A stretch of 64,000 nt of DNA from a virus, in the IMG/VR virus record IMGVR_UViG_3300045988_076381; one strand, given 5' to 3'. Under the pieces are notes generated by a model, which worked only from the letters and a program-made list of their open reading frames with translations, was not told the DNA's origin and ran no database searches. This document shows positions 20,863-62,705 of this stretch, in pieces. The position numbers were made by a program, and so were the translations under genes. Each line of letters starts with the position of its first letter. Within the stretch, counting starts at the first letter, position 1.

Positions 20863-21272
20863 ATGAATAGAAAAGAAAGAACTATCTCCGAAAATATGGA
20901 GAAATTAATGATAGACCAAATCTCAAGAGAATTATATAATCATAATGTATATAGAACATATGCGAATTACTATTATGTAAGAGGATTGTTTAAATTACAT
21001 CTTTATTATGAGATGAGATCTAACGAGGAATATAATCATCATCAATGGATTGTTGATAGATTATATAGAGCCGGAGTTGATTTTAATTATCCAGAAGTAC
21101 CAGCTATTAAATCTAATCATGTTATATTAAAGCCAGAAGATAGTTTTCAGAAAGTAGTAGATTTAGAGATTGAAACTACTATGTATATAAATAAAATGAT
21201 AGAAACTGCGAAAGAGGAGAAGGATTGGCAGACGGAGGGATGGTTAAAGAGGACGTTAAATGAAGAGCAGAT
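20863..21272 (+). CDS. ferritin-like protein, exon 1 of 2
   Basis: Four-helix ferritin pattern (QISRELYNHNVYRTYANYY...SNEEYNHHQWIVDRL...DLEIETTMYINKMIETA...). The ORF runs into intron sequence after LNEEQ. Confidence 0.7.
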
Positions 21273-21464
21273 AAACTTTTGTCTGAAAGTATGGTAACAT
21301 ACAGGTGAATAGATCAAAATCGATGAAGTCTAATTTAGATAATATCGAGGTAAGTATGAATTTAAAGGATTCATACCACTGTAACGCGTAGGTGTTGAAA
21401 CTATTAATTATTTATAAATTATATTTTTGCAGAAGAGATAATTGTTTTTATCGTGGAAGAATAT

Positions 21465-21472
21465 TAACTTTG
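21465..21472 (+). promoter_or_regulatory. -7 box TAacTTTG inside the intron, upstream of the endonuclease gene
   Basis: Matches TAnnTTTG, 31 nt upstream of ATG 21503. Confidence 0.4.
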
Positions 21473-21502
21473 TATTTATTACATTTTAATATTTAAATTC
21501 TT

Positions 21503-22270
21503 ATGGATAAAAACAGAAAACTAGAATTTGAGGGAAAGATATTTCCTACGAATAATTGTGGCGAGCTAAAAATCATCGAATATAATGGAGCAACTAATGT
21601 AGTGGTGGAGTTTATTACTACTAAAACTATACATTCTACCACTATGAATAACATCAAGAAAGGATCAGTATCCGATCCTATGTATCCAACAGTATATGGA
21701 ATAGGATATATGGGTATAGGAGAGTATAAAAGTAGGACTGGGACTAGTCCTCAAACAACTTGCTATAAACGATGGAAAGAAATTCTTAATCGATGCTATA
21801 ATCCTAAATGTTCTGCTTATAAATTTTATGGAGGAAATGGAGCAATTATATGTGAAGAATGGAAAAATTTCCAAAATTTTGCATCTTGGTGGTATTCTAA
21901 CTTTCCAAATTGGGAAGGAATTAAAATTGCTATAGATAAAGATTTATTATGTAAGGGAAATAAGGAATATTGTCCTGAATACTGCTGCTTTTTACCTCAA
22001 GAAATAAACGAAGCTCTTACTTTAAGAAAAAAGGAAAGAGGGGATTATCCAGTTGGAGTACGGTTAAAAGAAGGAAAAATTATTGCTCAAATTAATTACA
22101 TGGGAAATAAAAAACATTTAGGAACATTTTCCACTGTTGAAGATGCTTTTGCAAAATATAAAATAGAAAAGGAAAAGTGTATGAAAGAATATGCTGATAA
22201 ATACAAAAATATACTTTCGGAGAGAGTGTATCAAGCATTATATAACTACACTATAAATATAGATGATTAA
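21503..22270 (+). CDS. intron-encoded AP2-domain homing-endonuclease-like protein
   Basis: C-terminal GVRLKEGKIIAQINYMGNKKHLGTFSTVEDAFAKYK is an AP2-like DNA-binding motif. The ORF lies wholly inside the intron. Confidence 0.55.
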   Translation: MDKNRKLEFEGKIFPTNNCGELKIIEYNGATNVVVEFITTKTIHSTTMNNIKKGSVSDPMYPTVYGIGYMGIGEYKSRTGTSPQTTCYKRWKEILNRCYNPKCSAYKFYGGNGAIICEEWKNFQNFASWWYSNFPNWEGIKIAIDKDLLCKGNKEYCPEYCCFLPQEINEALTLRKKERGDYPVGVRLKEGKIIAQINYMGNKKHLGTFSTVEDAFAKYKIEKEKCMKEYADKYKNILSERVYQALYNYTINIDD

Positions 22271-22441
22271 TAGAATAAAATATACCCAAGAGTGATCTAC
22301 TCCTACAGGTAATGCTGAGGATGAAAATGTACGCTGAACCGTCTGATGATTAAATCAGAATATCTTTATTTACATCTTCAATAAAGTAAGGAGGAGACTC
22401 CCGGAAGTAAGAGATAAAAAACTCTTACGATAACAAAATTG

Positions 22442-22604
22442 GGAAGAAGAAGATGTTAGCCGAATAATCCTAACAATGTCTGAGGAAGATACTGACTGGC
22501 AGACTAAGGAAGATACTATTCTATCATATTATAATGGATTGAATAGAGTAATAGAAGGAGATAGAGATATTATTGACAATAACTCTTTTCTTAAACAAAG
22601 ATAA
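22442..22604 (+). CDS. ferritin-like protein, exon 2 of 2
   Basis: In-frame continuation (M)EEEDVSRIILTMSEEDTDW...FLKQR, stop at 22602-22604. Confidence 0.65.
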
Positions 22605-24271: not shown

Positions 24272-24739
24272 ATGAAAGATTTTAAACACTTTGGAGTTAG
24301 GTTTAAAGGTATAAGTAGTTGTAATTATACCGCAATATGGAGTAATTTAATTACAATACGTCTTGGAGATAAAGAGATTAAAGAACTTCCAGCAGATAAA
24401 GCTGAGTTTTATGACGTTTCATTAGGAGATAAATGTGTTACTGGGAAATGTAATTTCTGCTTAGTACCAGAAACACATATACTTACTAATGAGGGTGATA
24501 AATATATAACAGACATAAAAACAGAAGACTTAGTGTTTTCTTACAATGAGTGTAGTGGAGATATTGAGTTAAAAAAAGTAGACCAAGTATTTGAAAGAGT
24601 ATATGAAGGAGAACTTATTGAAGTGGTTACAGAAATCGGAACTTTAAGACTGACTCCGAATCATAAAATATATACTAGAAATAGAGGATGGATTGCAGCG
24701 TGTAATCTACAAGTGTCAGACGAATTGTTAGAATTTTAA
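24272..24739 (+). CDS. radical-SAM-like protein N-terminal fragment fused to the N-terminal half of a split intein
   Basis: 62 aa of host sequence end in DKCVTGKCNF. Intein block A follows (CLVPETHILT), then block B (TPNHKIY), then a stop. Confidence 0.75.
   Translation: MKDFKHFGVRFKGISSCNYTAIWSNLITIRLGDKEIKELPADKAEFYDVSLGDKCVTGKCNFCLVPETHILTNEGDKYITDIKTEDLVFSYNECSGDIELKKVDQVFERVYEGELIEVVTEIGTLRLTPNHKIYTRNRGWIAACNLQVSDELLEF
24458..24736 (+). mobile_element. split intein, N-terminal half (about 93 aa)
   Basis: Starts at Cys63 (CLVPETHILTNEGD...) and contains TxxH. Several stop codons follow in every frame before the next ORF. Confidence 0.7.
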
Positions 24740-24811: not shown

Positions 24812-25933
24812 ATGAAAACATGTAAATATTGTGGATGTGATATATCCCACCTAAGAGCTAATGCTACCACTTGTGGATCGAGAGAATGTATAAATGCGTA
24901 TAGAAGAGAACGTAAATCCAAACCTAAGGAGCCAAGAACTTGCGAAATTTGTGGAACGTCTATAGACGATCTTCCTGGACAAAGGAGAATTTGTAAAAAT
25001 CCAGAATGTGAAGCGGAGCAAAAAAGAAGAAAATATGCACAGGCCTTAAAAGAAAAAATATGTAAAAAATGTGGAGATACTTTCCTTGGCACTTCTAAAC
25101 AAACCTGTTGTGAAAACTGTAGAAAACATAAAGATATAACATTTAAAGTTATAGAACAGAAAGTAGTTTGTGAAGATTGTGGAGCCTTACTAAGGACCGA
25201 AAGTAAAAAAGTTAATGGAAAAACTAAGGAGATTATAGCAAAAGGAATGTGTGATGATTGTAAACAAAAACATAGAGAGAAACTTAGTTTACAAATGAAA
25301 GAACATAATCCTATGTTTGATCCTGAGATAGTTAAAAAAACTTCGGAGACAAGACGATATAAGTATCTACAAAAATGTGAAGAAGAAGAAAGGCTTCCTT
25401 ATGTAAGAAAAGGATGTAAAGGTGAAACTAGGGAAGAAATGATTCAAAGAATGAAAGAACACAATCCTATGTTTGATCCTGAAACTAGAGCAAAGGTCAG
25501 CAAAACTCTTAAAGAAAAAATTTTATCTGGAGAAATTATTTATGCTAAAGGTCCAGAACATCATTTGTGGAAAGGTAATAGAAATTTTAATAAGGCAGTA
25601 CGTATAGAATTAAGAAAATGGGTTAAAGAACAAATGGAAAAGGTTCATTATATATGCCAAAAATGTGGGAAAACACGCACCGAATTACATGTACACCATT
25701 TACATCCATTAAGGGATATAATTTTGGATACTTTAAATAAAAATAATTTAACTATCATAGATATAAATAGTATGGAGGGTTCAGAACAATATTTTGATAT
25801 AATTAAACAAATAATTGAATATCATTATCAACATAATGATATCGGAATTGTTGTTTGTCCCCAATGTCATAATGAACTAGATAGTTATTATAAAAGAAAA
25901 ACTCATGAAAATAGTAAGTATAAAGAAAGTTAA
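24812..25933 (+). CDS. free-standing HNH homing endonuclease with zinc ribbons and NUMOD3-like repeats
   Basis: Many CxxC pairs, the duplicated motif MKEHNPMFDPE(I/T)..K.S.T, and C-terminal HVHHLHPL...VVCPQCHNELD (HNH). Confidence 0.75.
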   Translation: MKTCKYCGCDISHLRANATTCGSRECINAYRRERKSKPKEPRTCEICGTSIDDLPGQRRICKNPECEAEQKRRKYAQALKEKICKKCGDTFLGTSKQTCCENCRKHKDITFKVIEQKVVCEDCGALLRTESKKVNGKTKEIIAKGMCDDCKQKHREKLSLQMKEHNPMFDPEIVKKTSETRRYKYLQKCEEEERLPYVRKGCKGETREEMIQRMKEHNPMFDPETRAKVSKTLKEKILSGEIIYAKGPEHHLWKGNRNFNKAVRIELRKWVKEQMEKVHYICQKCGKTRTELHVHHLHPLRDIILDTLNKNNLTIIDINSMEGSEQYFDIIKQIIEYHYQHNDIGIVVCPQCHNELDSYYKRKTHENSKYKES

Positions 25934-26009
25934 TTATAATGGAAAGGTATATAATATTGGAGTGAGAGATAATAATAATTATTTTGCATCTAATATTTTA
26001 GTACATAAC
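25905..26009 (+). mobile_element. split intein, C-terminal half (35 aa)
   Basis: MKIVSIKKVNYNGKVYNIGVRDNNNYFASNILVHN ends in the canonical HN, followed by the +1 Cys. Confidence 0.7.
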
Positions 26010-26786
26010 TGCTATGTATCTTCTAATCCAAATGGGGAGTATTATACTAATGTATGTGAAACATGGAAGAAGTTTATTGCTACATTTGCTCCAGATAAGA
26101 AAGAAAAGAATATCACTATCACAGAAAAACCCTTTCAAATAGCGATTGGATCTGAAGGCTCTGCGGACGAGTCGCCGGAGTTCTGTGATTTCTTGGAAAC
26201 TGTATATAATACTGGAGTAGTTCCTAATTATACTACTAACGGAGTAATTCTATCATATTATGATAAGCCTGGAACAGAATATTATGACTTGGCGAATAAA
26301 ATCCTTAAATATACTCACGATTATGTAGCAGGAGTTGCTGTCTCGTTTGGAAACAAATCTCTCCGATCTTATGCAGAAAATGCTATAAAAGGATTATTAG
26401 AAAAAGGAGATTGTCATATTAATATTCATCATATAATATCTGATAAAGCCTCTGTACAAGACTTTATAGATAGTTGGTATAATTACTCAGACGATATAAA
26501 ATATCATGTCCTATTGCCTCTAATGCCCTCTGGAAGGTCTACTAAAGGATTAGAACCAGGAGTATGGGAAATTCTAGAAAAAGCGATTAAAGATTTAAAT
26601 ATTACAAATGTTGCCTTTGGAGCTCATTTTTATAAATATCTAACAGATTCATCAATTAAAGCTTGGATATATCCTCCCGAAAGTTTAAGTAAGAATATGA
26701 TTCTTAAAAATGGGAAAGTTATTATTACTCCAAGCTCCTTTGATTTAACTCCTATTAAAACATTTGATTTTAATGAGAAAATATAA
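25905..26786 (+). CDS. split-intein C-terminal half fused to the radical-SAM-like protein C-terminal fragment
   Basis: After the 35-aa intein half comes CYVSSNPNG...QIAIGSEG...PNYTTNG. The joined exteins give CVTGKCNFC (C-x4-C-x2-C). Confidence 0.7.
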   Translation: MKIVSIKKVNYNGKVYNIGVRDNNNYFASNILVHNCYVSSNPNGEYYTNVCETWKKFIATFAPDKKEKNITITEKPFQIAIGSEGSADESPEFCDFLETVYNTGVVPNYTTNGVILSYYDKPGTEYYDLANKILKYTHDYVAGVAVSFGNKSLRSYAENAIKGLLEKGDCHINIHHIISDKASVQDFIDSWYNYSDDIKYHVLLPLMPSGRSTKGLEPGVWEILEKAIKDLNITNVAFGAHFYKYLTDSSIKAWIYPPESLSKNMILKNGKVIITPSSFDLTPIKTFDFNEKI

Positions 26787-42201: not shown

Positions 42202-42344
42202 ATTTAATTGATTCTTTTTATCAAAAAGTAGAAGAAGGGAAGAAAGGGAATAATATGGGTATACCATCCGGATTTCCTAAATTGGATAAGTATATATATG
42301 GTATACAAAGAAGGTTTATGAGCACAGTTATTGCCGATTCGGGT
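42198..42344 (+). CDS. DnaB-like SF4 replicative helicase, exon 1 of 2
   Basis: Ends ...VIADSG, the first half of the Walker A motif. Confidence 0.75.
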
Positions 42345-43638: not shown

Positions 43639-43725
43639 ATGGCTATAGTATTACCAACAAGTAAAATACAACCAACAGAAACTGAACCTAGGGTATTAGT
43701 TATATTCTCGAAGCCAAAGAGTGGT
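43639..43725 (+). CDS. Sak4/AAA_24-like ATPase, exon 1 of 2
   Basis: MAIVLPTS...RVLVIFSKPKSG ends in the middle of the Walker A motif. Confidence 0.7.
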
Positions 43726-43765
43726 AAATTTTATTAAAATATTTGGATAAGTAAAATTTTATGGA

Positions 43766-43773
43766 TATCTTTG
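43766..43773 (+). promoter_or_regulatory. -7 box TAtcTTTG, with TTTG 20 nt upstream, inside the intron
   Basis: TTTG at 43742-43745 and TAtcTTTG at 43766, 29 nt upstream of ATG 43802. Confidence 0.5.
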
Positions 43774-43801
43774 TAATTATTATTAATACAAATATATAAT
43801 T

Positions 43802-45025: not shown

Positions 45026-45203
45026 CGCGTAGGTGTTGAAACTGTATTTATTTAAATACAGAATAAAATATACCCAAGAGTGCTCTGCTCCTATTTAATA
45101 GGATGAAAAAGTACGCTAAACTGGATCAGAAATAACTGATCGATAATCAATGAGGGAAACCTCCAGAACTAAAAGATAAAAAGCTTTTAGGATAATATAA
45201 TTG

Positions 45204-45995
45204 AAATCAACGGCTTTAAGCCTATTAGATAATAACTTAATACTAGATACAGAAAAGGGAACAGCGTATATTGAAGCATTAAAAGTAGATATTTCTTCAG
45301 TTAAAGATATATTAGAAGTATGTAAACAAGTTAAGGCAGCAGGATATCCTTATAAATATATAACTCTAGATACTTTAACTTCTTTAGAGGAAATTCTACA
45401 ACCGTATGCTTTAAATCTATGGAAGAAATCTAACGCATATAATCCAGAAAAGAATCCAGAACAACTAAAAGTAACTGATGTATATAGTTTACCTTTTGGG
45501 TTAGGCCAAAAGTATATGAGAGATTCATATTTAGCAGTAATCGGATTATTACAACAAGTATGTAAAAGAATTATTCTAGTATGTCATTCAAAAGATGCGA
45601 AAATAAATGAAAATGAATTAACTATAAAAGATATTGATTTAGCTGGAAAATTATCTGATATTATTGCATCTAGATATGATGGAGCTGGATATTTATATAG
45701 GGATATAAATGATAATACTATTATTACTTTTGATATAAAACAGCTTGCAGCAGAATGTAAATGTAGAGTTCCTAGATTAGATGGTAAGAAGTTTGTATTA
45801 ATCGAGAATCGAAATGGGGAATTAATACCTCATTGGGATCGTATTTATTCTTCCGAACCTTATAGTGGAGAAGATGTAGTTACTACTCCCCAGATTAATG
45901 TTACAGATATTTTAGATAAGGAAGATCAATCTGAAAATTCTAACATATCTGAAGAGGAATCTGAAGTAGATAAACTTTCAAATATAGAATTATAA
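45204..45995 (+). CDS. Sak4/AAA_24-like ATPase, exon 2 of 2
   Basis: KSTALSLLDNNLILDTEKG...ITLDTLTSLEE...; acidic C-terminus. Confidence 0.7.
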   Translation, partial: KSTALSLLDNNLILDTEKGTAYIEALKVDISSVKDILEVCKQVKAAGYPYKYITLDTLTSLEEILQPYALNLWKKSNAYNPEKNPEQLKVTDVYSLPFGLGQKYMRDSYLAVIGLLQQVCKRIILVCHSKDAKINENELTIKDIDLAGKLSDIIASRYDGAGYLYRDINDNTIITFDIKQLAAECKCRVPRLDGKKFVLIENRNGELIPHWDRIYSSEPYSGEDVVTTPQINVTDILDKEDQSENSNISEEESEVDKLSNIEL

Positions 45996-50145: not shown

Positions 50146-50586
50146 ATGCTTATATATAAAGAAGAATATAAAGATGATTTCGATGATAATATCCTAAGAT
50201 GTTTAACTTGTATCCAAACTAATAATGAGGTAAAGGGATTTTTATGTCTTATTCATTATTTAAAGGAACGATATAGAAGCAACTTATTTAATATCAAATA
50301 TTATATATTGAATAACTTTAAACCAACTGCAATTGAAGAAGCCTTAGGAAAAATATATGAAAATACATTTATTGAAATAATTAAAGATTTATTAGATAAT
50401 AAATTTAATGAAATTTGCGATTTTGTAGACTATTTTATTCTATATACTAATTCCAAGTTTGAATTATTTATAGAATTTTATACGGATACAAGATTAATAG
50501 AAGGGAAGGAGTTTTTCGATAATTTAAAACAACTTATTCCTGATATTACTATACATAGAACTGTGAATGGAGAACTTCGGGACTGA
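50146..50586 (+). CDS. hypothetical protein (tandem paralogue B)
   Basis: KGFLCLIHYLKERYRSNLFNIKYYI. The ATG at 50146 aligns with the paralogue A start. Confidence 0.55.
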   Translation: MLIYKEEYKDDFDDNILRCLTCIQTNNEVKGFLCLIHYLKERYRSNLFNIKYYILNNFKPTAIEEALGKIYENTFIEIIKDLLDNKFNEICDFVDYFILYTNSKFELFIEFYTDTRLIEGKEFFDNLKQLIPDITIHRTVNGELRD

Positions 50587-51361
50587 TTTAATATCTAGAG
50601 AAGTATTATCTAAATTTAAGATAAAAATATTATCAATAAATAGTTTAGATATAACTGATGAAGTATATTTTTCTGATAAATATTCTAATTATATATCTAA
50701 TTCTAAATTAAAACTGATAAATCCTAATGAAGGAGGATCATTTAAAACATATTTAGAAGGATTAAAATCTAAATCTACTGGATCTCTGGATTTAGGATCA
50801 GCAGTTCATGAGTTAGTTCTACAAAATGAATCATTTGAATTAAATTCTTATATCAAACCATCTGGTAAAATTGGGAAAGTTATAGAGGTTGTATTTAAAT
50901 ATAGAAATAAGGGATATTCCATATTAAATGCAATTCGAAAAGCTTCCGAAGAAGTTTCTTATTACATATCTCAATTAACTGATACAAGAATATCTAATAT
51001 AATCTCATCTGGATTTAAATATTATCTTTATTTATATAAAAATAAAGATATTAAATATGATAAAGAACAAATAATCTTGGATGAAAAATCTAGGGAAACT
51101 TGTATAAAATGTGTAGATTCTATTAGAAGAAATTCTGATGCAATGAATCTCCTTTCCCCAGATGAATTTTCATTAGATCAGTATTTAAATAAGAATGAGG
51201 ATACTATAGTGATGGAAATAGTAGTAACCTTCCCTAACAGTACTTCCGATCCAAATGCAGAAGAAGTAAGTATTTTGTTAAAGTTAAAAGCTAAGATAGA
51301 TAATTGGAATTTAAATATAGATGAGGGTTTATTAAATCTAAATGATTTAAAAACTACAGGT
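50567..51361 (+). CDS. PD-(D/E)XK (RecB/Cas4-like) exonuclease, exon 1 of 2
   Basis: GSAVHE...; ends LNLNDLKTTG (D...K catalytic region). Confidence 0.65.
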
Positions 51362-52636
51362 AAGTAAAATTTTTTTATTGTATTTTATTTGTTTTATTTC
51401 ATTAAATGTATTTAATTTGTATATTATTAAATTATACAATAAAAATACATTTATGAATAATCTAAATCAAGCTATTAGTGATTACGAACATTTATTTATA
51501 GGAATTTGTGAATTAAGTAAAAAATATAAAATTCCTAATAAAGAAATTAGAAAAGCGTTAGAAGATAAAGGATATTATTTAGGAAAAGGAGTATCTCCAA
51601 AAAGTGTTGTGCATATTAAACTTGCAGTAGAGGAATATAAAAATATTCTTAATGCTGGTGAAGAACCTAATATTCATCAACTGGCATTAAAGTATGATAT
51701 TTCCGATACGTCTATAAAAGACAATTTAATTAGATTAAATCTTCCTGTTGTAAGATACCCTAAAAAAATCCATTTTGATGAACATGTCTTTGATGTTATA
51801 GATACTGAAGAAAAAGCATATTGGCTAGGATTTTTAACTGCTGATGGGTATATTTATAGTAGAGATAATACATTTGGAATTAGTCTAGCTAGTATAGATA
51901 AGCATCATGTAGAAAAATATGCCACATTTCTTAAATGTCCTCAACATGTTAAATTTAAGAATAACGAATATGCTGGAATATATAGATGTGATTTAGGAAA
52001 CGCTCATGTAAAGCAAGTATTACAAAAATATGGATTTACTGCTTCTAAATCTTTTGACTGTACCTTTTTAAAAGACCAGTTTTTTGCAAATTCCGATTTA
52101 ATAAGACATTATATTAGAGGATATTTTGATGGAGATGGCTGTGTCAGTTATAAAAAAAAGTATAGAAAAACAATTAATGCCACTATTTATATTCCGATAG
52201 TTTCTATAGTTGGAACAGAAGCTTTTTTACAAGAATTAAGAAATAAATCAAATTTAATTTGTCTTTTTCAGTCACAACAAAATCTATGGAATTTATATGG
52301 ATCTGGAAAAAAGGCAAAAGATTTTCTTTATTACATTTATAATAACGCTACTATTTATTTAGATAGAAAATACAATATTTATAGAAATTATATTGCCCCA
52401 CACTTAGAGAAATCAAGTGTTCCGCAGTGGCCAATATCGGTGGATACTGAAATGTAAATACCGAGATAAATTCAGAGATTACGAAAGGCTCTGAATCATC
52501 GTAACGCGTAGAAGGTGAATAAATATAATCCTTCCAAGAGTGGCTGCCACCTTAAAGGGTGAAAATGTACGCTGAACTATATCGAATAACAAGATATAGA
52601 AATAAAGGATAAAAAGCCTTTATGATAACAAAATTG
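51362..52636 (+). mobile_element. group I intron (family B) carrying a LAGLIDADG endonuclease gene
   Basis: Blocks gtaacgcgtag (52501), ccaagagtg (52534), aaaatgtacgctgaac and the 3' end gataacaaaattg. Removal gives DLKTTG-KPWYLFPG. Confidence 0.75.
51453..52457 (+). CDS. intron-encoded LAGLIDADG homing endonuclease
   Basis: YWLGFLTADGYI and YIRGYFDGDGCV; the first ATG of track ORF 51378..52457 is at 51453. Confidence 0.85.
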   Translation: MNNLNQAISDYEHLFIGICELSKKYKIPNKEIRKALEDKGYYLGKGVSPKSVVHIKLAVEEYKNILNAGEEPNIHQLALKYDISDTSIKDNLIRLNLPVVRYPKKIHFDEHVFDVIDTEEKAYWLGFLTADGYIYSRDNTFGISLASIDKHHVEKYATFLKCPQHVKFKNNEYAGIYRCDLGNAHVKQVLQKYGFTASKSFDCTFLKDQFFANSDLIRHYIRGYFDGDGCVSYKKKYRKTINATIYIPIVSIVGTEAFLQELRNKSNLICLFQSQQNLWNLYGSGKKAKDFLYYIYNNATIYLDRKYNIYRNYIAPHLEKSSVPQWPISVDTEM

Positions 52637-52948
52637 AAACCATGGTATTTATTCCCAGGATCTATAGTAAAAGAAACAGGAGAATTTGTTGAAGGTTCCT
52701 TTCAACATTATCATTACTATCGCCAATTATCTATGTATTTCTGGATGCTCAAGCAATATCTAACTTCGGAAGGATATAAATTAAACAAATCTTATTTAAA
52801 TATAATCTCTGTACAAACTATTCCTAATTATTCTACAGTAGTATTTAGAATCCCAAATAAATGGTTTGTTAAAGGATTGAAGGAATTTAAAACCTTACTA
52901 TCATACGCTGCTTATGCTGAATATAATAAAGAAAAAATATTATCATGA
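52637..52948 (+). CDS. PD-(D/E)XK exonuclease, exon 2 of 2
   Basis: KPWYLFPG...HYYRQLSMYFWML (QxxxY motif of RecB-family nucleases). Confidence 0.65.
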   Translation, partial: KPWYLFPGSIVKETGEFVEGSFQHYHYYRQLSMYFWMLKQYLTSEGYKLNKSYLNIISVQTIPNYSTVVFRIPNKWFVKGLKEFKTLLSYAAYAEYNKEKILS

Positions 52949-54237: not shown

Positions 54238-55395
54238 ATGAAACTAGAATTATCTAAATCGATCTTAGAATCCATCTCAAGTAGAGTAAATAACGATATT
54301 TTTACATTTGATGATGTAGAAAGTGAATATAAATTCGATAATATTCAAGAAAAGTTATATAATAGATTATATAAAAACTATCAGGATTTAACTCCACCAC
54401 AATTTGATTTAGATACATTTAGATTCACATATAAAATACTTTGTCAAAACTCTGGAGTGAAGAAGACTCCTCAGAAACAATTAAATAAAGTTAAGGATAG
54501 AAAAATTGTATATGATGCTACTACTGATGAATCTTTCGAAAGTAGAATTGTTGGTTCATCTGTAAGAGATGAAGAAGGTAAAGTAATACATTATGAATTT
54601 AGAATCCTTATTAGAGATAAAGAATCTTTTGAAGGTACTCTCACATTATCTGAAATGCAGGATATTTATGTTGGATATTCTAATAGAGGATATAATTTAT
54701 CAGCTAGGAAATTGTCTGAGAAATTCCCACAATATGATTTGATTCAATTAAAGAAGATTTTAAGAGCATTTCAGATTACTAAAGATTGTTACCCTTTTGC
54801 TCCACATATTGCAGAAAGTAAGAGTAAAGAGGAATTAGAAAGGATGTTATTAGATTTAAAATTACATTCTGCTTCTAAGAACGCTGATAGAGATGAGATA
54901 CAAGATAAGAATAAATATATCTTAGAATTAACTAAGGAACTTAACAAGTATAGGGATAAAGAAACATTCGTTAAGGATTTACTTAGAATTCCTGTTAAAT
55001 ATAATACTCCTATAACGCCTTTATATTCCGATGCTAATGAATATACTAATACGTTAGTTATATTCTTATCTGATATGCATATTGGAGCTTATAATCCTAA
55101 ATATGGATTTATACAATTGGAAGATTATAATAAAGAAGAAATTAGTAGGAGATTAGATAAAGTATATAATTTTATTATTAATAAATTATTTGATAATTTA
55201 ATTATCTGTAATTTAGGAGATAGTGTAGATTCTTATAAAGGTGAAACTGTTAGAGGTCATGAATTACCTACTACTATTACTCCAAAAGAACAATCTAAGA
55301 TGTATTTAGATGTTATGTTAGAGTTCTTTAATAAATTACTTGATTATGTAGAAAATTCTCATATTAAATATATTTGTATTGGAGATTCAAATCAT
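54238..55395 (+). CDS. Mre11/SbcD-like metallophosphoesterase, exon 1 of 3
   Basis: FLSDMHIG (motif I), NLGDSVD (II); ends IGDSNH (III minus the final Asp). Confidence 0.7.
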
Positions 55396-55697
55396 TGATT
55401 GTATTTAAATACAATTTGTGCTAATAATAAGAAATTATTATTCGAAACTAGGTTAACTGCTGGGACGCCTGAGATGGTAATCAGCAACCAAGCTACAGAT
55501 TTAAATTCTGTAGAAGGCTCATCGACTATTCCTGAAATGGAAGTAGAATCAAGCGATTCGAAATGCCTAGCCCTTAGCATTATATCTAACACAGATATAG
55601 ATGAAGGTGAAGATATAGTCAGTTCTCATATTAATAAGGAAGTATGAGGAGGTTTTATTAACCCGTATAAGAGTAGCGAACTTATATGAACACGAAG
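55396..55697 (+). mobile_element. group I intron (family A), ORF-less
   Basis: aagatatagtc at 55610 is an exact match to the S element and tcatcgacta at 55519 is R-like. A P1 hairpin places U55395 opposite G55418. The intron ends in G. Removal gives GDSNH-DGDW. Confidence 0.7.
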
Positions 55698-55835
55698 GAC
55701 GGTGACTGGGGATGGCTAAATAATATTGTTCTTGCCTCTAAATTAGAGCAATTAAATATAGAATCTTATATTTCCGATCTTCCAATTGATAAATTTGATG
55801 TTGGAAATAATTCTATACTATTCATGCATGGTGAT
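55698..55835 (+). CDS. Mre11/SbcD-like metallophosphoesterase, exon 2 of 3
   Basis: DGDWGWLNNIV...NNSILFMHGD; 138 nt, in frame with both neighbours. Confidence 0.65.
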
Positions 55836-56405
55836 ATATTTTTCATATTTTTAATATAATTATTTGGGTTCCATAGAAATAATTTATATTTGTTAAATAA
55901 TAATATATTTAATAAATAAAGATCATTCTAAAATGCTCCTTTCCTTATTAGGAACAGAAGATTTTTAAATTCTATACAAGATGTATTTTCTACTAAGTAC
56001 ACTTTGGAATATAATCATAATGATAAGAATTCTAAAACTAGAGTACTAGAAATAGCTTGTAGACCAGGGCTTAACATTTTACATAAATTATATTCACACT
56101 CAAAAATATATTTAAAAAGAAAATATGAAAGATATTTAGAATATTGCCGTCTATATGAGGAATCATATAGAGAATTAGAAACCAATAACGGGGAAGGCTG
56201 TGATGTCAATCCCGTGATAAGTACAGAAAGTAAAGAGTCTGTGCCATCGTAACGCGTAGAACTTGAACCTCGAAAGAGAATAAAATAGTTCCAAGAGTGG
56301 TTTCTACCCCAACACTTTTATAAGTAGTGGGTAAAAAGGTACGCTGGACTATAGCAAAAAGAAGCTATAGAAGTTAGGATAAAAAGCCTAACGATAACAA
56401 AATCG
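55836..56405 (+). mobile_element. group I intron (family B) with a decayed LAGLIDADG gene
   Basis: Blocks gtaacgcgtag (56249), ccaagagtg (56291), aaaaggtacgctggac and the 3' end gataacaaaatcg. Removal gives FMHGD-KDSDSQFKG. Confidence 0.7.
55933..56252 (+). pseudogene. remnant of a LAGLIDADG homing endonuclease gene
   Basis: Fragments LLGTEDF and ...IYLKRKYERYLEY...SVPS-stop are colinear with the C-terminal third of 43802..45025 (MLGTENFL...IFLDRKYLRYKYF...SISS-stop). Both LAGLIDADG motifs are missing and the frame is broken. Confidence 0.6.
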
Positions 56406-56702
56406 AAAGATAGCGATTCCCAGTTTAAAGGAATGCCTCTTACATTGAATGATAGAACAATAAATTGGGTAAATGATTATATTTATGATTCTGGATTAAA
56501 ATTTAAAGACAATCTCTATGTAGTAAAAGGAGATTTACATCAATATGCTATAACAGAATCCAGAAGGTTTCAATATATTTCTGTTCCAAGTTTATATGGA
56601 TCTTCTAATTATATAGCTGCTAATTTTGGGAAGACTAAATGGGGAGTAGGTTTTATGGAAGTATTTAATGACCATGTAACAACTGGAGTAATTAAGGAGT
56701 AA
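56406..56702 (+). CDS. Mre11/SbcD-like metallophosphoesterase, exon 3 of 3
   Basis: KDSDSQFKGMPL...VVKGDLHQYA (GxH motif). Confidence 0.65.
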   Translation, partial: KDSDSQFKGMPLTLNDRTINWVNDYIYDSGLKFKDNLYVVKGDLHQYAITESRRFQYISVPSLYGSSNYIAANFGKTKWGVGFMEVFNDHVTTGVIKE

Positions 56703-58384: not shown

Positions 58385-59146
58385 ATGGAAGTAACATTAG
58401 AACAATTACTAAAAGGAAAAGCAACACAAATAGGAAAGAAAGAATTCTATTCTACTAAGGATTATATAGATCCCTTTCTTCAATCTATGAGTAAATTTAC
58501 AGATGAATTTATCTGTAAAGTAAAAGAACCAAAACAAATTAGTATTGGTGAAGAGAAAGATGTAATGTATAATAGGGTTTATATTCAAGCAGTTTTACCT
58601 AAAAACTATTGGGAGTATGAAGATCATCAGCAAGTAATATCTTTAATTTATGGATTAGATTGTAAAGTCCCAGTAGTAAAAATTTTTAGAGGAGGGATTA
58701 ATATGGCGTGTTTAAATCTTTGTGTGTTTAATGCTACATATTTAAATACACAAGTATTAGAGCCACAAAAGATGTATGATATTTCTCCCATTAAAAACCT
58801 AATGAATTTAACAGATGATTTAGGAGTTAAGATTAAAAAATTAAAGAATACATTTATATCTAGAGATAAAGTAGATATGACTAATACTCTGGGCAAATGG
58901 GTAGATTTTTGTATTAAATCTGAGTATAAAAGTGATTTCGGAAAAGCTAAATTATCCCCAACTACTGCAATATCTGCATATAAAAATTTAGTTTTAAATC
59001 CCGACTCAGAGTATTATATTCCGGAAGATGAGGAAGTTTCGTTATTTACCGCATATAACGCATTTACTGAATTATTAAGGGATGATAAAGATGTTGTCAA
59101 TCCTTTTGAAAAGAATTTACTTTTAAATAATTTATTTGAAATTTAA
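58385..59146 (+). CDS. DUF3871/DUF932-like protein (putative)
   Basis: RGGINMACLNLCVFN resembles the GFxNmVCxNLC core of that family, from memory. Confidence 0.4.
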   Translation: MEVTLEQLLKGKATQIGKKEFYSTKDYIDPFLQSMSKFTDEFICKVKEPKQISIGEEKDVMYNRVYIQAVLPKNYWEYEDHQQVISLIYGLDCKVPVVKIFRGGINMACLNLCVFNATYLNTQVLEPQKMYDISPIKNLMNLTDDLGVKIKKLKNTFISRDKVDMTNTLGKWVDFCIKSEYKSDFGKAKLSPTTAISAYKNLVLNPDSEYYIPEDEEVSLFTAYNAFTELLRDDKDVVNPFEKNLLLNNLFEI

Positions 59147-59147
59147 T

Positions 59148-59741
59148 ATGTACAATGATCAATCTAATGCTTTAGGAGAATTTATTTTTCAATCTAAATA
59201 TGCTAGATATAATTCTAATCTGAAAAGGAAAGAGACCTTTGAGGAATCTGTAGATAGAATATTACAGATGCATTTAAAACATCTTAAAGATAAATATCCA
59301 GAAGTATTAAATAATGCAGAATTTAATAATGATTTATTAGAAGCTTTTGAGGAGTATAAAAATAAAAATGTTTATGGATCTCAGAGAGCTTTGCAATTCG
59401 GAGGCGATCCTATTTTAAGAAAGAATGAAAAAATCTTCAATTGTTCATATACGTATATAGATAGTCTAGAAAGATTTGAGCAAATTGAGTATTTACTGTT
59501 ATGTGGTTGTGGAGTGGGGTGTTCTGTTGAATATAAACACGTAAATATTCTTCCCATGATGCCTGAAAGACTTAATAGCTCGGTTGAAGAATATGTAATC
59601 GGGGACAGTATTGAAAGTTGGAGTTTAGCTATTGGTAGATTAGTTCAATATTATTTTAATTCTAACGTAACTTATCCTAAGTTTGATTATTCTAAAATTA
59701 GACCTAGTGGAAGTTTAATATCAGGCGGATTTTTGGCACCT
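59148..59741 (+). CDS. ribonucleotide reductase large (catalytic) subunit, exon 1 of 3
   Basis: LLCGCGVGCSV...YSKIRPSGSLISGGFLAP. The ATG at 59148 follows the upstream stop. Confidence 0.8.
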
Positions 59742-60573
59742 AAAATGTCTGGGATTTAATAAAGCGATTTATTATCTAAACTTTCTTAATTGCTGGGAAC
59801 TCCTAAAGCATTTTCTTACTAATTATTAATTTTAAATACTATAGTGACAATGGAAAATGATGTTACAATGGACAATCAGCAGAATTTATCTCTCTTCACT
59901 CCGGTAAAAGGTTATGAAGATTATTATTTAATTAACGAAGATGGAGATGTTTATTCTATTAGAAGTAAGAGATTACTAACTTCTCATTATAAGCATCGAT
60001 ATTGGCAATATGAATTTAATGTAAACGGAAAGGTTACTTATCCACAAAAACATAGATTAGTGGCTTTAACATTTATTCCTAATCCGGACAATAAGCCGTA
60101 TGTGAATCATATTGATGGTAATAGAAATAATAATTATGTATCTAACTTAGAATGGTGTACAGCTAAAGAAAATACGGCTCACGCTAGAAGAGTTGGATTA
60201 ATAACCGATGATGAATATGTAGAATATACTTTATTAAATTCTAATAAAGAGGTATTATACTCTGCTTTCGGATATAAGAAATTTTTACAAAAGACAGGAA
60301 TGTCTGATGGTGTTTTATATAGAAGTAAAAATACAAATAAACCAATAAGTAGAAGGAAATTTAAAGGATGTTATGTTTATGTAAACAGACAGCCTAAAGG
60401 ACGTAAAGAGATATAGATTTTCAACGACTATCCCGAAGGGAGTACATTACAAGCTAATGGTAATGGAAACAGAAAGCATCTCTCGTAGATGTTGATATAG
60501 TCTGATCTTATATGAAAATATAAGCAGTTCATAAGAGAACGCAGTAATTCTTGCGAGATTACTGGAACACTTG
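59742..60573 (+). mobile_element. group I intron (family A) carrying a NUMOD4-HNH endonuclease gene
   Basis: ttcaacgacta at 60420 (R), gatatagtc at 60494 (S), agcagttcataagagaacg near the 3' end, and a terminal G. Removal gives GGFLAP-GPNGL. Confidence 0.8.
59850..60416 (+). CDS. intron-encoded HNH homing endonuclease (NUMOD4 + HNH_3 type)
   Basis: GYEDYYLINEDGDVYS (NUMOD4) and VNHIDGNRNNNYVSNLEWCTAKENTAHA (HNH). Confidence 0.85.
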   Translation: MENDVTMDNQQNLSLFTPVKGYEDYYLINEDGDVYSIRSKRLLTSHYKHRYWQYEFNVNGKVTYPQKHRLVALTFIPNPDNKPYVNHIDGNRNNNYVSNLEWCTAKENTAHARRVGLITDDEYVEYTLLNSNKEVLYSAFGYKKFLQKTGMSDGVLYRSKNTNKPISRRKFKGCYVYVNRQPKGRKEI

Positions 60574-61338
60574 GGACCAAATGGTTTAAGAAATGCTCTA
60601 AATAAAATAGATTCTTTACTAGATAATGTTCATAAAACTACTAGAAAACTCTCTCCACTTAACTGTGCTGATATATTATCACACTGTGCAGACAGTGTAC
60701 TTTCGGGTGGTGTGCGCAGGTCTGCTTTAGCTATATTATTCTCTCCTAATGATGAGGAGATGTATAATTCTAAAGTAGGTAATTGGTTTTATGATAATCC
60801 TCAACGTGGAAGATATAATGCTTCTGTTGCTTTGGAGAGAAGTGATGATAATAAAGAAGTATTTAATAAAATCTTTGAATCTACTAAAGAATATGGAGAA
60901 CCTGGGTTTTTCTTTAGGTCTGATTCTGGTATAGGTTGTAATCCATGCTTCGAGATTGGTTTTAAACCCGTACTAGAAATACAGAAACCTGATGGAGTAT
61001 CTAAACAAACCGGGATACAGTTTTGTAATTTGATCTCTATCTCAGGTAAAGAATCTACAACAGAAGAAAAATTCTATAAACAATGTAAAGCAGCTGCTAC
61101 TATTGGAACAATTCAAGCTACATATAATTCTTTCCCTTTCTTGGGTGAAGTAACAGAGCAATTAGCTAAGAATGATCCATTAATTGGAGTATCTATTAGC
61201 GGGATTATGATGAATCCTGATATATTATTAAATGAAAATATTCTGCGTAAAGGAGCTGAGATTATTAAAGAACAAAATAGCAAAATAGCTAACTTACTAA
61301 GAATTAATCCTGCATCTAGGACTACTTGTATTAAGCCT
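60574..61338 (+). CDS. ribonucleotide reductase large subunit, exon 2 of 3
   Basis: GPNGL...LSGGVRRSA...EYGEPGFFF...CNPCFEI...FCNLISI...TTCIKP. Confidence 0.8.
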
Positions 61339-61607
61339 AAAATATTGGGCATTTAAATAGTAATATTTAAATATAAACACCGTGAATTGCTGGAATGGTT
61401 TATTTCTATATAAACCTAATCAGCAGCCAAGTTAAATCGGGTTCAACGACTATCTAGAAATAGAGTACAGTGTAAGCTAATGACACTGGAAGCGCGGTGC
61501 TCCTATTATTTAAATAGGATGATGATATAGTCTAATCTATATGGTGACATATAGCAGTTCATAAGAGAACGTATATAAGAGTTGCGTCTTATATAGAATA
61601 TATAATG
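61339..61607 (+). mobile_element. group I intron (family A), ORF-less
   Basis: gttcaacgacta at 61441 (R), gatatagtc at 61524 (S), and the same agcagttcataagagaacg block as the first RNR intron. Removal gives TTCIKP-DGNISTL. Confidence 0.8.
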
Positions 61608-62705
61608 GATGGAAATATAAGTACCTTAACTGGAAACACTCCCGGATGTCATGGTCAACATGCGAAAAGATATATCCGGAGAGTTCAGGTTAATAAAGAA
61701 GAAGAAGCAGGTAAAGTATACGCTAAATATAATCCTAAAGCAGTAGTAGAATCTGTTTGGTCTAATAATCATACTGATAATTGTATTATGTTCGCAATAG
61801 AATCGGATGATAACGTTAAAACCAAATCGGAATTACTAGGAATTAAACAATTAGAAGTAATTAAATTACTATATAACAACTGGATTCTTCCAGGAATGGT
61901 AGATCCTACTAATCCTGTATGTAATAATGTATCTAATACTGTTATAGTTCCAAATCAAGATTGGCATAGAGTAAAAGATTGGGTATGGAATAATAAAAAC
62001 TTTATTGCTGGAGTATCATTTATTCCTTCAACTGGAGACATTACTTTTACACAACCTCCATACTCAGAAGTATTTATCCCAGAAGAATTAGTGGAAATGT
62101 ATGGGGACGGAGTAATATTTGCCTCAGGTCTAATCGTAGATGCAGAAAAAACTTTCGGGAATTTGTGGAAAGCTTGTGATACATTTAATTATAAAGGGGA
62201 GAAACTATATTCTACTGTTGAAGATGCTAAAGAATTTATTAAAGAACTTAATGTAGCAGAAGATCCCTCTTATTTAAATAAACCTCATTCTGAATGGGTA
62301 AAAGCTAATTCAATTCAATATAATAATTGGGTTAAAGTATTATCCATATTGGGATATACAGAAGAATTCATAGATGAAATTTTAGATTCTGATATAGAAA
62401 TTCCAATTGCAGAAATTCAGAAGTATTTAGATAAAACAGCATTTACTAATATAAAAAATCTAAATACTAAAAGAGATATAATGCGGAGAATGAAGAAGTT
62501 CGGAGATACATATTTCGGAGAAGATTATAGTACTATGATTGAAGCTCTTAAATATGTACAATTATATCATGATTGGTGTGATATAACTAGAAACTATACT
62601 CCTATCGATTGGACTACAGTTAAATGGAAAAAAGTATTAATTGATGCAGATACAACAGGAGCTCAGGCTTGTTCTGGAGGACAATGTGATATAACTAAAA
62701 TATAA
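61608..62705 (+). CDS. ribonucleotide reductase large subunit, exon 3 of 3
   Basis: DGNISTLTGNTPGCHG... and the C-terminal redox pair CSGGQC; class I versus class II not resolvable by eye. Confidence 0.8.
   Translation, partial: DGNISTLTGNTPGCHGQHAKRYIRRVQVNKEEEAGKVYAKYNPKAVVESVWSNNHTDNCIMFAIESDDNVKTKSELLGIKQLEVIKLLYNNWILPGMVDPTNPVCNNVSNTVIVPNQDWHRVKDWVWNNKNFIAGVSFIPSTGDITFTQPPYSEVFIPEELVEMYGDGVIFASGLIVDAEKTFGNLWKACDTFNYKGEKLYSTVEDAKEFIKELNVAEDPSYLNKPHSEWVKANSIQYNNWVKVLSILGYTEEFIDEILDSDIEIPIAEIQKYLDKTAFTNIKNLNTKRDIMRRMKKFGDTYFGEDYSTMIEALKYVQLYHDWCDITRNYTPIDWTTVKWKKVLIDADTTGAQACSGGQCDITKI

What the first reader, a model, noticed from the sequence alone, without database searches (positions are those of the whole stretch)
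20863..62705. Eight group I introns plus a split intein within about 42 kb, all in DNA or nucleotide metabolism genes
Six genes are each broken into pieces that rejoin in frame only if a structured, conserved non-coding block is removed.

The inferred junctions are:
- ferritin-like: EEQ|M|EEE
- DnaB-like helicase: DSG|AGKS
- Sak4-like ATPase: KSG|KST
- PD-(D/E)XK nuclease: DLKTTG|KPW
- phosphoesterase: GDSNH|D and FMHGD|K
- RNR: FLAP|GPNG and CIKP|DGN

Supporting points:
- Every insertion falls in a catalytic or nucleotide-binding motif, as expected for homing elements.
- Every 5' exon ends in T and every inferred intron ends in G.
- With the intein, that makes nine self-splicing elements in seven genes, a very high density for one genomic region.
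Basis: partly seen in the sequence, partly recalled or inferred. Interest (0 to 1): 0.85.

Follow-up and report, generated by a model that had tools for sequence, protein, structure and literature searches.

The report
Eight phage introns plus split intein
A 42-kb stretch of an uncultured crAss-like phage genome carries eight self-splicing group I introns and one split intein in seven genes, but intron-crowded gut-phage genomes of this kind have already been described, so this is a very clean example rather than a new kind of thing.

Summary
The finding is real and its interpretation is essentially right. There are eight intervening sequences: ferritin-like 21273-22441; DnaB 42345-42657; Sak4 43726-45203; PD-(D/E)XK nuclease 51362-52636; phosphoesterase 55396-55697 and 55833-56405; class II RNR 59742-60573 and 61339-61607. 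Each follows a U that pairs with a G of an internal guide sequence, and each ends in G.

- Four "class Y" introns have the classic P/Q/R/S core. Three of them score 67-102 bits on Rfam RF00028.
- Four "class X" introns are invisible to RF00028. They fold into a group I core (P3-P7 pseudoknot, P4-P6, P7.1, P8, P9) with strong covariation across 60 relatives.
- Near-identical IMG/VR phage contigs carry precisely intron-less alleles at all eight sites. They also carry an intein-less allele.

Two corrections. The second phosphoesterase junction is FMHG|K, not FMHGD|K. The intein host is a radical-SAM enzyme of unknown role, so "all DNA/nucleotide metabolism" is overstated.

High intron and intein density is already published for crAss-like Zeta phages (Yutin 2021) and Jug phages. 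The split intein matches the "fractured gene" layout (Dassa 2009). Verdict: new member of a known kind, moderate interest.

The parts
20863..21272 (+). Ferritin-like gene, exon 1 (ends ...GAG CAG AT)
   Evidence: Pfam Ferritin 1.5e-16 on the spliced product. The intron-less alleles L199-L201 read CAGAT|GGAAG.
21273..22441 (+). Class X group I intron (1169 nt). P1 guide sequence GTCTG lies at 21281-21285. The HNH/AP2-type homing endonuclease ORF 21503-22270 sits in the P7.1 loop.
   Evidence: Relatives carry 320-nt versions without an endonuclease gene and about 725-746-nt versions, one of which (L203) holds a different, GIY-YIG-like ORF.
22442..22604 (+). Ferritin-like gene, exon 2
24272..24739 (+). 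Radical-SAM-family gene, first half: N-extein 24272-24457 (ends ...KCNF) plus N-intein 24458-24736 (93 aa, starts CLVPETH, contains TPNH), then the stop codon.
   Evidence: Pfam PT-HINT 32.3 bits and Intein_splicing 26 bits. Sequence. Intein-less alleles read KCPW|CYVD.
24812..25933 (+). Free-standing HNH endonuclease gene between the two intein halves
   Evidence: phrog_1271 HNH endonuclease 3.5e-16. Pfam HNH is weak. Four stop codons separate it from the N-intein ORF.
25905..26786 (+). Radical-SAM-family gene, second half: C-intein 25905-26009 (35 aa, ends ...ILVHN) plus C-extein 26010-26786 (starts CYVSS). It is in a different frame from the first half.
   Evidence: Pfam Intein_splicing positions 122-155.. 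Homologues carry PF04055 Radical_SAM.
42198..42344 (+). DnaB-like helicase, exon 1 (ends ...ADSG)
42345..42657 (+). Class Y group I intron (313 nt, no ORF), inserted in the Walker A motif
   Evidence: RF00028 83.1 bits. The intron-less allele L154 is identical over 300 nt of flanking exon. A 1194-nt variant with a GIY-YIG ORF occurs in L164.
42658..43638 (+). DnaB-like helicase, exon 2 (starts AGKS)
43639..43725 (+). Sak4-like ATPase, exon 1 (29 codons, ends ...PKSG)
43726..45203 (+). Class X group I intron (1478 nt). The LAGLIDADG ORF 43802-45025 lies in the P1 loop, and its 3' end overlaps the guide sequence (G at 44873) through P6.
   Evidence: phrog_4645 4e-52.. 21 related loci (about 16 contigs) lack the intron.
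45204..45995 (+). Sak4-like ATPase, exon 2 (starts KST)
50567..51361 (+). PD-(D/E)XK nuclease, exon 1 (ends ...DLKTTG)
51362..52636 (+). Class X group I intron (1275 nt). The LAGLIDADG ORF (51378/51453-52457) lies in the P1 loop. The guide-sequence G is at 52395.
   Evidence: Pfam LAGLIDADG_3.. Intron-less alleles read TTG|KMW.
52637..52948 (+). PD-(D/E)XK nuclease, exon 2 (starts KPW)
54238..55395 (+). Mre11/SbcD-like phosphoesterase, exon 1 (ends GDSNH)
55396..55697 (+). Class Y group I intron (302 nt, no real ORF), inserted in the GNH(D/E) motif
   Evidence: RF00028 67.0 bits. Intron-less alleles read CAT|GAC.
55698..55832 (+). Phosphoesterase, exon 2 (DGDWGW...FMHG). The end is corrected from 55835 to 55832.
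   Evidence: Intron-less homologues read LHG|KD. P1 pairs ATGGT with GCCGT.
55833..56405 (+). Class X group I intron (573 nt). It holds a remnant of a LAGLIDADG gene (ORF 56004-56252, equal to the C-terminal 82 aa of the 351-aa ORF of relatives). The guide-sequence G is at 56146.
   Evidence: Relatives carry about 1290-1313-nt (full endonuclease gene), 312-nt (no endonuclease gene) and empty forms.
56406..56702 (+). Phosphoesterase, exon 3 (starts KDSDS)
59136..59741 (+). Class II (RTPR-like) ribonucleotide reductase, exon 1 (ends ...FLAP)
59742..60573 (+). Class Y group I intron (832 nt). The HNH_3 endonuclease ORF 59844-60416 is inserted after P4 5' (P element at 59788). The R element is at 60421 and the S element at 60495.
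   Evidence: 13 related loci lack the intron.
60574..61338 (+). RNR, exon 2 (GPNG...CIKP)
61339..61607 (+). Class Y group I intron (269 nt, no ORF)
   Evidence: RF00028 101.7 bits. The intron-less allele L179 is identical over 300 nt of flanks.
61608..62705 (+). RNR, exon 3 (starts DGN)

Best explanation
The region is the replication and nucleotide-metabolism module of an uncultured phage with a crAss-like replication module. Nine mobile self-splicing elements have invaded it.

Eight are group I introns.
- After transcription each folds into the group I ribozyme core.
- The last exon U pairs with a G of the intron's internal guide sequence in helix P1.
- An external guanosine attacks that site.
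- The freed exon then attacks after the intron's terminal G, which joins the exons in frame.
- The intact ferritin-like, DnaB, Sak4, nuclease, phosphoesterase and RNR proteins can then be translated.

Four introns (ferritin, Sak4, nuclease, RNR-1) still carry a homing endonuclease gene. One (phosphoesterase-2) carries a remnant, and three carry none. The endonucleases cut intron-less alleles of co-infecting relatives, and repair copies the intron in.

The ninth element is a split intein. The two halves of a radical-SAM gene are translated separately, with a free-standing HNH endonuclease gene between them. The intein halves associate and ligate the exteins by protein trans-splicing at CNF|CYV.

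Shown here: the sequence anatomy, the RNA folds, and the precise presence/absence of every element. Inferred: actual splicing, homing and trans-splicing.
For: (1) Spliced ORFs are colinear with single protein families and with uninterrupted homologues. For example, the RNR aligns in one piece over 98% of its length to a Rhizobium phage RTPR.

(2) RF00028 scores 101.7, 83.1 and 67.0 bits for three introns. RNR-1 has the same P, R and S elements and partial hits.

(3) The class X core occurs in more than 120 IMG/VR contigs. On a 60-sequence alignment a group I structure gives:
- P3/P7 pseudoknot, P4, P5, P6, P7.1, P8, P9, P9.2
- 91.5% of cells paired against 29-44% for slid controls
- 31 of 43 pairs with compensatory changes
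- 0 of 500 shuffles as good

(4) All eight 5' splice sites have a U.G pair plus 3-5 bp of exon-guide pairing, and all introns end in G.

(5) Contigs 90-100% identical carry alleles that lack each intron exactly at the predicted junction. For DnaB and RNR-2 there are 0 mismatches in 300 nt of flank.

(6) Homing endonuclease ORFs are present: LAGLIDADG, HNH and AP2-type. Relatives show full, degenerate, endonuclease-less and empty states of the same introns. Flank mismatches cluster within +-15 nt of the junction for the endonuclease-bearing Sak4 and RNR-1 introns.

(7) Intein evidence:
- Cys1, TPNH, a terminal HN and a +1 Cys are present
- Pfam HINT/Intein_splicing hits fall on both halves
- the halves are in separate frames with stop codons between them
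- the same layout occurs in 3 related contigs
- the intein-less allele KCPW|CYVD occurs in 16 related loci
Against: - There are no RNA data, so splicing is not observed.
- The class X introns are not matched by Rfam RF00028. The phosphoesterase-2 copy gave no hit when scanned with lax filters, and none was reported in the 44-kb E-value scan.
- RNR-1 reaches only 19.8 bits.
- P1 exon pairing is short (3 bp) for the nuclease, phosphoesterase-1 and RNR-1 introns.
- The Intein_splicing Pfam scores (26.0 and 22.5 bits) are below the curated cut-off of 35.8. Only PT-HINT passes.
- The window's own copies are in the alignment used for the covariation test.
Confidence: 0.92

Rival explanations
1. Some of the eight elements are dead relics. 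The ribozyme no longer splices efficiently, so the host gene in this particular genome is a pseudogene or depends on a helper. The best candidates are the phosphoesterase-2 intron, which holds only an endonuclease remnant, and the introns with 3-bp P1 pairing.
For: The phosphoesterase-2 intron carries only the C-terminal 82 codons of a 351-codon LAGLIDADG ORF. P1 exon pairing is 3 bp in three introns. This genome carries all nine elements, whereas no relative sampled does. That pattern could reflect a non-viable assembly variant.
Against: The remnant-bearing intron keeps an intact core identical to that of relatives with full or no endonuclease gene. Exons show no frameshifts or stop codons. 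The deletion that removed the endonuclease gene spared exactly the part that doubles as P2-P6. Three-base-pair P1 exon pairing is not unusual for group I introns (own knowledge).
Confidence: 0.06
2. The gene pieces are translated separately and work as non-covalent subunits. The intervening blocks are just intergenic DNA with inserted endonuclease genes (free-standing homing endonucleases that split genes, without RNA splicing).
For: Free-standing endonuclease genes that split genes do exist in phages. The intein locus in this same window is an example at the protein level.
Against: Several downstream pieces lack a start codon at the junction, and several upstream pieces are tiny (Sak4 exon 1 is 29 codons). 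Breaks fall inside Walker A and metal-binding motifs. The intervening blocks have conserved, covarying group I structure and RF00028 hits. Three have no ORF at all.
Confidence: 0.01
3. The radical-SAM gene is simply inactivated by a decayed intein. A formerly contiguous intein was broken by endonuclease-gene rearrangement and no longer trans-splices.
For: Only 3 of 19 related loci share the split arrangement and the others have no intein. Pfam Intein_splicing scores are below the cut-off. The function of the host gene is unknown, so it may be dispensable.
Against: All catalytic intein residues are kept (Cys1, TxxH, terminal HN, +1 Cys). Both halves have sizes typical of natural split inteins (93 and 35 aa). 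Both exteins are intact ORFs 95-97% identical to the uninterrupted protein. The layout matches the published 'fractured gene' class (PMC2677866).
Confidence: 0.12

Closest known systems
Intron- and intein-rich crAss-like phages, Zeta and Delta groups (Yutin et al. 2021, PMC7886860)
   Same: [quoted passage not shown] The affected genes include ATP_43b, which I take to be the Sak4-like ATPase (own reading). [quoted passage not shown] The window's primase is most similar to crAss-like primases among annotated phages. Its helicase-Sak4-primase order matches crAss-like cr6_1, which has a class X-like core next to an endonuclease gene in front of its helicase. Related contigs reach 155-167 kb.
   Different: Membership of the Zeta group was not tested here, because no TerL, MCP or RNAP lies in the window. 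No stop-codon recoding is seen in this region. That paper found introns through their endonuclease domains. Here three of the eight introns have no ORF, and the RNA cores were analysed directly.
Jug (jumbo gut) phages (PMC12880540)
   Same: On average 18.5 group I introns per genome, split RNR and polymerase genes, HNH and LAGLIDADG endonucleases, and splicing confirmed by metatranscriptome reads.
   Different: Those genomes are 360-402 kb and their RNR is class III nrdD. Here the related contigs are at most about 167 kb and the RNR is class II RTPR-like. The local density here is higher: 9 elements in 42 kb.
Phage T4 td / nrdB / sunY introns (subgroup IA2; own knowledge)
   Same: Group I introns in nucleotide-metabolism genes of a phage. 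They have extra helices between P7 and P3 (P7.1/P7.2), endonuclease ORFs looped out of the core, and are polymorphic among relatives.
   Different: T4 has three. Here there are eight in one quarter of the genome length, from two distinct sequence families. In three of them the ORF lies in the P1 loop and overlaps P2-P6.
[quoted passage not shown] 2009, PMC2677866)
   Same: The layout is identical: N-extein plus N-intein ORF, a separate endonuclease gene, then C-intein plus C-extein ORF. It is mainly found in phage.
   Different: The host here is a radical-SAM-family protein, not one of the DNA synthesis or repair enzymes listed in that abstract. The endonuclease is HNH, whereas half of their loci carried a Vsr-like family.
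PhiPA3 intron endonuclease gp210 (PMC11620839)
   Same: [quoted passage not shown] Related phages that lack the intron are potential targets.
   Different: A competitive function was demonstrated there. Here only the polymorphism pattern that would allow it is seen.

Membership tests
Group I intron | The 5' splice site follows a U that forms a U.G wobble with the internal guide sequence in P1 | tested here: met
   All eight have a U.G pair plus 3-5 bp of exon-guide pairing. For the phosphoesterase-2 intron this holds only at 55832|55833, which is also the junction demanded by intron-less alleles.
Group I intron | The intron ends in G (omega G) | tested here: met
   All eight.
Group I intron | Conserved catalytic core: P3-P7 pseudoknot, P4-P6 domain, P8, P9 | tested here: met
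   Class Y: full-length alignment to the RF00028 model. Class X: 9 helices with 91.5% of cells paired, 31 of 43 pairs compensatory, slid controls 29-44%. P7 itself is invariant, so it is uninformative.
Group I intron | Score at or above the Rfam RF00028 gathering threshold (50 bits) | tested here: inconclusive
   Met for DnaB (83.1), phosphoesterase-1 (67.0) and RNR-2 (101.7). Not met for RNR-1 (19.8, model split by the endonuclease gene) or for the class X introns. The phosphoesterase-2 copy was scanned with lax filters and gave no hit, and none of the four was reported in the 44-kb scan. I take RF00028 to be insensitive to some subgroups (own knowledge). With default filters on the whole window it also missed the 83- and 67-bit hits.
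Group I intron | Precise absence from homologous alleles (a mobile insertion, not part of the gene) | tested here: met
   All eight sites.
Group I intron | Guanosine-dependent self-splicing of the transcript | not testable with these tools
   Needs an in-vitro splicing assay or RNA-seq.
Split intein ('fractured gene' type) | Intein blocks: Cys/Ser at position 1, TxxH in block B, terminal (H)N, nucleophile at +1 | tested here: met
   CLVPETH..., TPNH...ILVHN|C. Pfam PT-HINT is above its cut-off, and Intein_splicing is below its cut-off on both halves.
Split intein ('fractured gene' type) | [quoted passage not shown] | tested here: met
   Stop at 24737-24739, four stops in the spacer, HNH ORF 24812-25933, C half in another frame. 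The same layout occurs in L204, L205 and L216.
Split intein ('fractured gene' type) | An uninterrupted host gene exists in relatives | tested here: met
   KCPW|CYVD is contiguous in 16 related loci, and 320-aa homologues are 93-97% identical.
Split intein ('fractured gene' type) | Protein trans-splicing activity | not testable with these tools
   Needs co-expression of the two ORFs.
Zeta-group crAss-like phage | Phylogenetic placement by TerL, MCP or RNAP; genome of 145-192 kb | not tested
   The marker genes are not in the window. Only indirect support exists: similarity of the primase to crAss-like primases, synteny with cr6_1, and related contigs of up to 167 kb.

The most novel reading that the evidence does not exclude
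The nine elements are not just parasites. They act as a polymorphic arsenal. This genome carries every element seen at these nine sites, while about 30 near-identical contigs carry none to about five. Its endonucleases would cut the replication genes of any co-infecting relative, giving interference competition as shown for the PhiPA3 intron. Selection for this would explain why density in this lineage is so high.
Probability: 0.2. Interest if true: 0.6.

Novelty: new member of a known kind. Interest (0 to 1): 0.35.

Why it matters
It gives a fully resolved, base-accurate map of nine self-splicing elements in one phage replication module. Natural intron-less and intein-less alleles serve as built-in controls.

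Every stage of the homing-endonuclease life cycle is visible within one phage population: full gene, remnant, endonuclease-less intron and empty site.

This is useful in three ways:
- for annotating gut-phage genomes, where split genes are routinely miscalled
- for showing that RF00028-based screening misses most of these introns
- as a natural system for studying intron homing and competition among co-circulating phage strains

It does not reveal a new mechanism.

Tried and rejected
- Whole-window Rfam scans found only one intron, both at gathering threshold and in E-value mode on 44 kb. Re-scanning short stretches recovered two more. RNR-1 stayed below threshold because its endonuclease gene splits the model.
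- Megablast of 22 kb against the phage collection gave only short hits to intron cores and endonuclease genes, so there is no close cultured or deposited relative.
- Pfam gave nothing for the phosphoesterase or for the intein host. A PDB sequence search for the intein host gave only spurious repeat matches, and NCBIfam gave nothing. Its radical-SAM identity comes only from precomputed Pfam hits and one source name on homologues.
- I considered group II introns and rejected them. Three of the introns are only 269-313 nt with no ORF, and the ORFs that are present match homing endonucleases, not reverse transcriptases.
- A tblastn-based occupancy table misreports the ferritin and intein sites, because HSPs run a few residues into the insert. 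For those two sites I rely on the flank and motif searches.
- P2 was not included in the column-based covariation test because MAFFT did not keep it in register.
- I did not build a covariance model, since nhmmer profiles already showed no further copies.

Full report
**What is there**

The + strand between 20863 and 62705 holds a phage replication and nucleotide-metabolism module. Six genes in it are each broken into two or three in-frame pieces. I joined the pieces at junctions that put a T at the end of each 5' exon and a G at the end of each insert. This gives single ORFs of 190, 375, 292, 368, 529-530 and 822 codons.

Each spliced product matches one protein family in a single stretch that runs across the junction(s):
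- Ferritin PF00210
- DnaB_C / phrog_19
- AAA_24 / Sak4-like phrog_124
- PDDEXK-like / exonuclease VIII phrog_412
- phage exonuclease phrog_22398/284
- ribonucleotide reductase phrog_367

The RNR is a class II RTPR-like enzyme. It aligns in one piece over 98% of its length to an uninterrupted Rhizobium-phage RTPR, and locally to L. leichmannii RTPR.

**Two intron families**

The eight inserts fall into two sequence classes.

Class Y comprises DnaB 42345-42657, phosphoesterase-1 55396-55697, RNR-1 59742-60573 and RNR-2 61339-61607.
- These carry the classic group I P, Q, R and S elements.
- Rfam RF00028 scores 101.7 bits for RNR-2 in the whole-window scan.
- The DnaB and phosphoesterase-1 introns were missed in the 64-kb and 44-kb scans. 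They score 83.1 and 67.0 bits when only a short stretch is searched. This is a filter effect worth knowing about.
- RNR-1 has an HNH_3 endonuclease gene (59844-60416) inserted after the 5' strand of P4. The model therefore finds only its two halves, at 19.8 and 10.6 bits.
- The 3' half of RNR-1 is plainly homologous to RNR-2.

Class X comprises ferritin 21273-22441, Sak4 43726-45203, nuclease 51362-52636 and phosphoesterase-2 55833-56405.
- These share GTAACGCGTAG...CCAAGAGTG...GTACGCTGAAC...GATAACAAAATTG.
- RF00028 did not match them. The phosphoesterase-2 copy gave no hit when scanned with lax filters, and none of the four was reported in the 44-kb scan.
- Reading the four copies side by side suggested a group I fold with P3, P4, P5, P6, P7, an extra helix P7.1 between P7 and the 3' strand of P3, P8 and P9 hairpins.

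To test that fold I scanned IMG/VR for the two invariant motifs. More than 120 contigs matched. I aligned 56 diverse copies with the four window copies and counted pairs for the structure I had drawn.
- 91.5% of cells form standard pairs, against 29-44% when the 3' partners are slid by 1-3 columns.
- 31 of 43 pairs show changes on both sides.
- No shuffle out of 500 reaches the observed covariation.
- P3 (6 bp) spans P4-P6 and interlocks with P7. This is the pseudoknot that defines the group I core.

Class X is therefore a genuine, widespread phage group I family that the Rfam model does not see.

**Splice sites**

All eight 5' exons end in a U that can pair with a G followed by 2-4 further exon-guide pairs, and all introns end in G.

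In the Sak4, nuclease and phosphoesterase-2 introns the guide sequence lies 300-1150 nt downstream of the splice site. The LAGLIDADG ORF sits in the P1 loop, and its last ~110 nt double as guide sequence, P2, P3, P4, P5 and P6. The stop codon is the TAA of the conserved CGTAACGCG.

This predicts the junction FMHG|K.

**Natural controls**

Protein-guided scans of IMG/VR returned dozens of contigs up to 167 kb long that are 90-100% identical to the window in these genes. At every one of the eight sites some of them lack the insert exactly at the predicted junction:

| Site | Intron-less junction |
|---|---|
| ferritin | CAGAT\|GGAAG |
| DnaB | GGT\|GCA |
| Sak4 | KSG\|KST |
| nuclease | TTG\|K |
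| phosphoesterase-1 | CAT\|GAC |
| phosphoesterase-2 | LHG\|KD |
| RNR-1 | AP\|GP |
| RNR-2 | CCT\|GAT |

- The phosphoesterase-2 result confirms the corrected junction.
- For the ORF-less DnaB and RNR-2 introns, intron-less alleles exist with 0 mismatches in 300 nt of flanking exon.
- For the endonuclease-bearing Sak4 and RNR-1 introns, about half of all flank differences lie within 15 nt of the junction. One is a switch of serine codon family (TCC versus AGT). This is as expected for co-conversion or target-site divergence.

The same introns occur in several states:
- phosphoesterase-2: about 1290-1313 nt with a 351-codon LAGLIDADG ORF; 573 nt with a remnant (this window); 312 nt without ORF; empty site.
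- ferritin: 1169 nt (this window); about 725-746 nt, of which one copy (L203) holds a different, GIY-YIG-like ORF; 320 nt; empty site.
- DnaB: 313 nt (this window); 1194 nt with a GIY-YIG ORF; empty site.

No sampled contig has all nine elements. This window does.

**The intein**

ORF 24272-24739 encodes 62 extein residues followed by a 93-residue N-intein (CLVPETH...TPNH...) and a stop codon. A 72-nt AT-rich spacer with further stops follows, and then an HNH endonuclease gene (24812-25933). ORF 25905-26786 is in another frame. It begins with a 35-residue C-intein (...ILVHN) followed by CYVSS....

Sixteen related loci have the uninterrupted gene (...KCPW|CYVD...), and three share the split layout. 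This is the 'fractured gene' arrangement of Dassa et al. 2009.

The spliced 320-residue protein has no Pfam, NCBIfam or PDB sequence match of its own. It does have more than 800 homologues, and many of those carry PF04055 Radical_SAM. The intein sits inside the cysteine cluster.

**Insertion sites**

- Walker A in DnaB and Sak4
- three residues after the D-x-K of the nuclease
- the GNH(D/E) and H-G motifs of the phosphoesterase
- the conserved GG.ASGP and KPSGT loops of the RNR
- a glutamate-rich stretch near the end of the ferritin domain

'Catalytic' is shown only loosely for the RNR and ferritin sites. Two of the seven genes, ferritin-like and radical SAM, are not demonstrably DNA or nucleotide metabolism.

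**Who is it, and is it new**

There is no close relative in the deposited-phage collection. The primase is most similar to crAss-like primases among annotated phages. The helicase-Sak4-primase order matches crAss-like cr6_1, which has a class X-like core beside an endonuclease gene in front of its helicase.

Three published precedents apply:
- Yutin et al. [quoted passage not shown] The affected genes included ATP_43b, which I take to be the Sak4-like ATPase.
- A 2025 paper confirms the trend for Zeta phages, which also carry class II RNR.
- Jug phages average 18.5 introns per genome, with splicing confirmed by RNA reads.

The phenomenon is therefore known. What this window adds is a particularly dense stretch (9 elements in 42 kb), exact boundaries, an RNA-level demonstration for an intron family that Rfam misses, and a population snapshot of the homing cycle.

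**Verdict**

It is a new member of a known kind, of moderate interest. Splicing, homing and trans-splicing remain inferred until RNA or biochemical data are obtained.

Noticed in passing
L181 3975-4249; L193, L184, L197 (RNR residue 326|328); L196, L197, L198, L182 (breaks near residues 160-172 and 207-250): Related contigs carry further introns at other sites of the same RNR gene. One is a ~273-nt class Y-like intron that splits the catalytic CNPC|FE motif. Across strains the gene has at least five insertion sites.
   Followed up: partly
window 1-64000 (method): Rfam cmscan on the whole window, and on 44 kb in E-value mode, missed RF00028 hits of 83 and 67 bits. Both appear when only 0.4-1.1 kb is searched. 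Screening long phage contigs with default filters badly undercounts group I introns.
   Followed up: yes
L002-L121 (class X cores); e.g. L004, L020, L024, L025, L026, L042, L063, L110: Many unrelated IMG/VR copies of the class X intron have the guide sequence TTGCCGT and a 3' exon that begins AAR-(ACN/TCN/AGY). They sit between the G and the K(S/T) of a P-loop, as in the window's Sak4 gene. This intron family seems to specialise in Walker A codons.
   Followed up: no
L203 (ferritin intron, 725 nt) versus window 21503-22270: The same ferritin intron carries a 129-codon GIY-YIG-like ORF in one relative and an HNH/AP2-type ORF in the window. The endonuclease cargo has been swapped within one intron.
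   Followed up: partly
window 42345-42657 and 61339-61607 versus L154, L179: ORF-less introns are present or absent between genomes whose flanking 300 nt are identical. Gain or loss was therefore very recent and left no co-conversion tract. How endonuclease-less introns move is unexplained; possibilities are a trans-acting endonuclease, plain recombination, or precise loss.
   Followed up: no
window 7893-12029: A tRNA cluster (Met, Cys, Met, Asn, Leu, Gln by ARAGORN). Rfam calls a seventh tRNA at 8859-8928 (37.7 bits) that ARAGORN does not report. No suppressor tRNA was seen.
   Followed up: no
window 22624-23979; 30935-31360 with 33484-35135; 40940-41458; 49214-50586: There are several runs of small paralogous ORFs. 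Three consecutive genes share an N-terminal S-D-(I/V)-I-T-N-S-S-S-E motif. Three genes share a C-terminal YWWP...SR(I/M)..(F/L)..LI motif. Two begin MPYY. Three adjacent ~150-aa genes resemble each other. Their functions are unknown.
   Followed up: no
window 55399-55647: An 82-codon TTG-initiated ORF lies entirely inside the 302-nt phosphoesterase-1 intron. It has no family match and is most likely spurious.
   Followed up: partly
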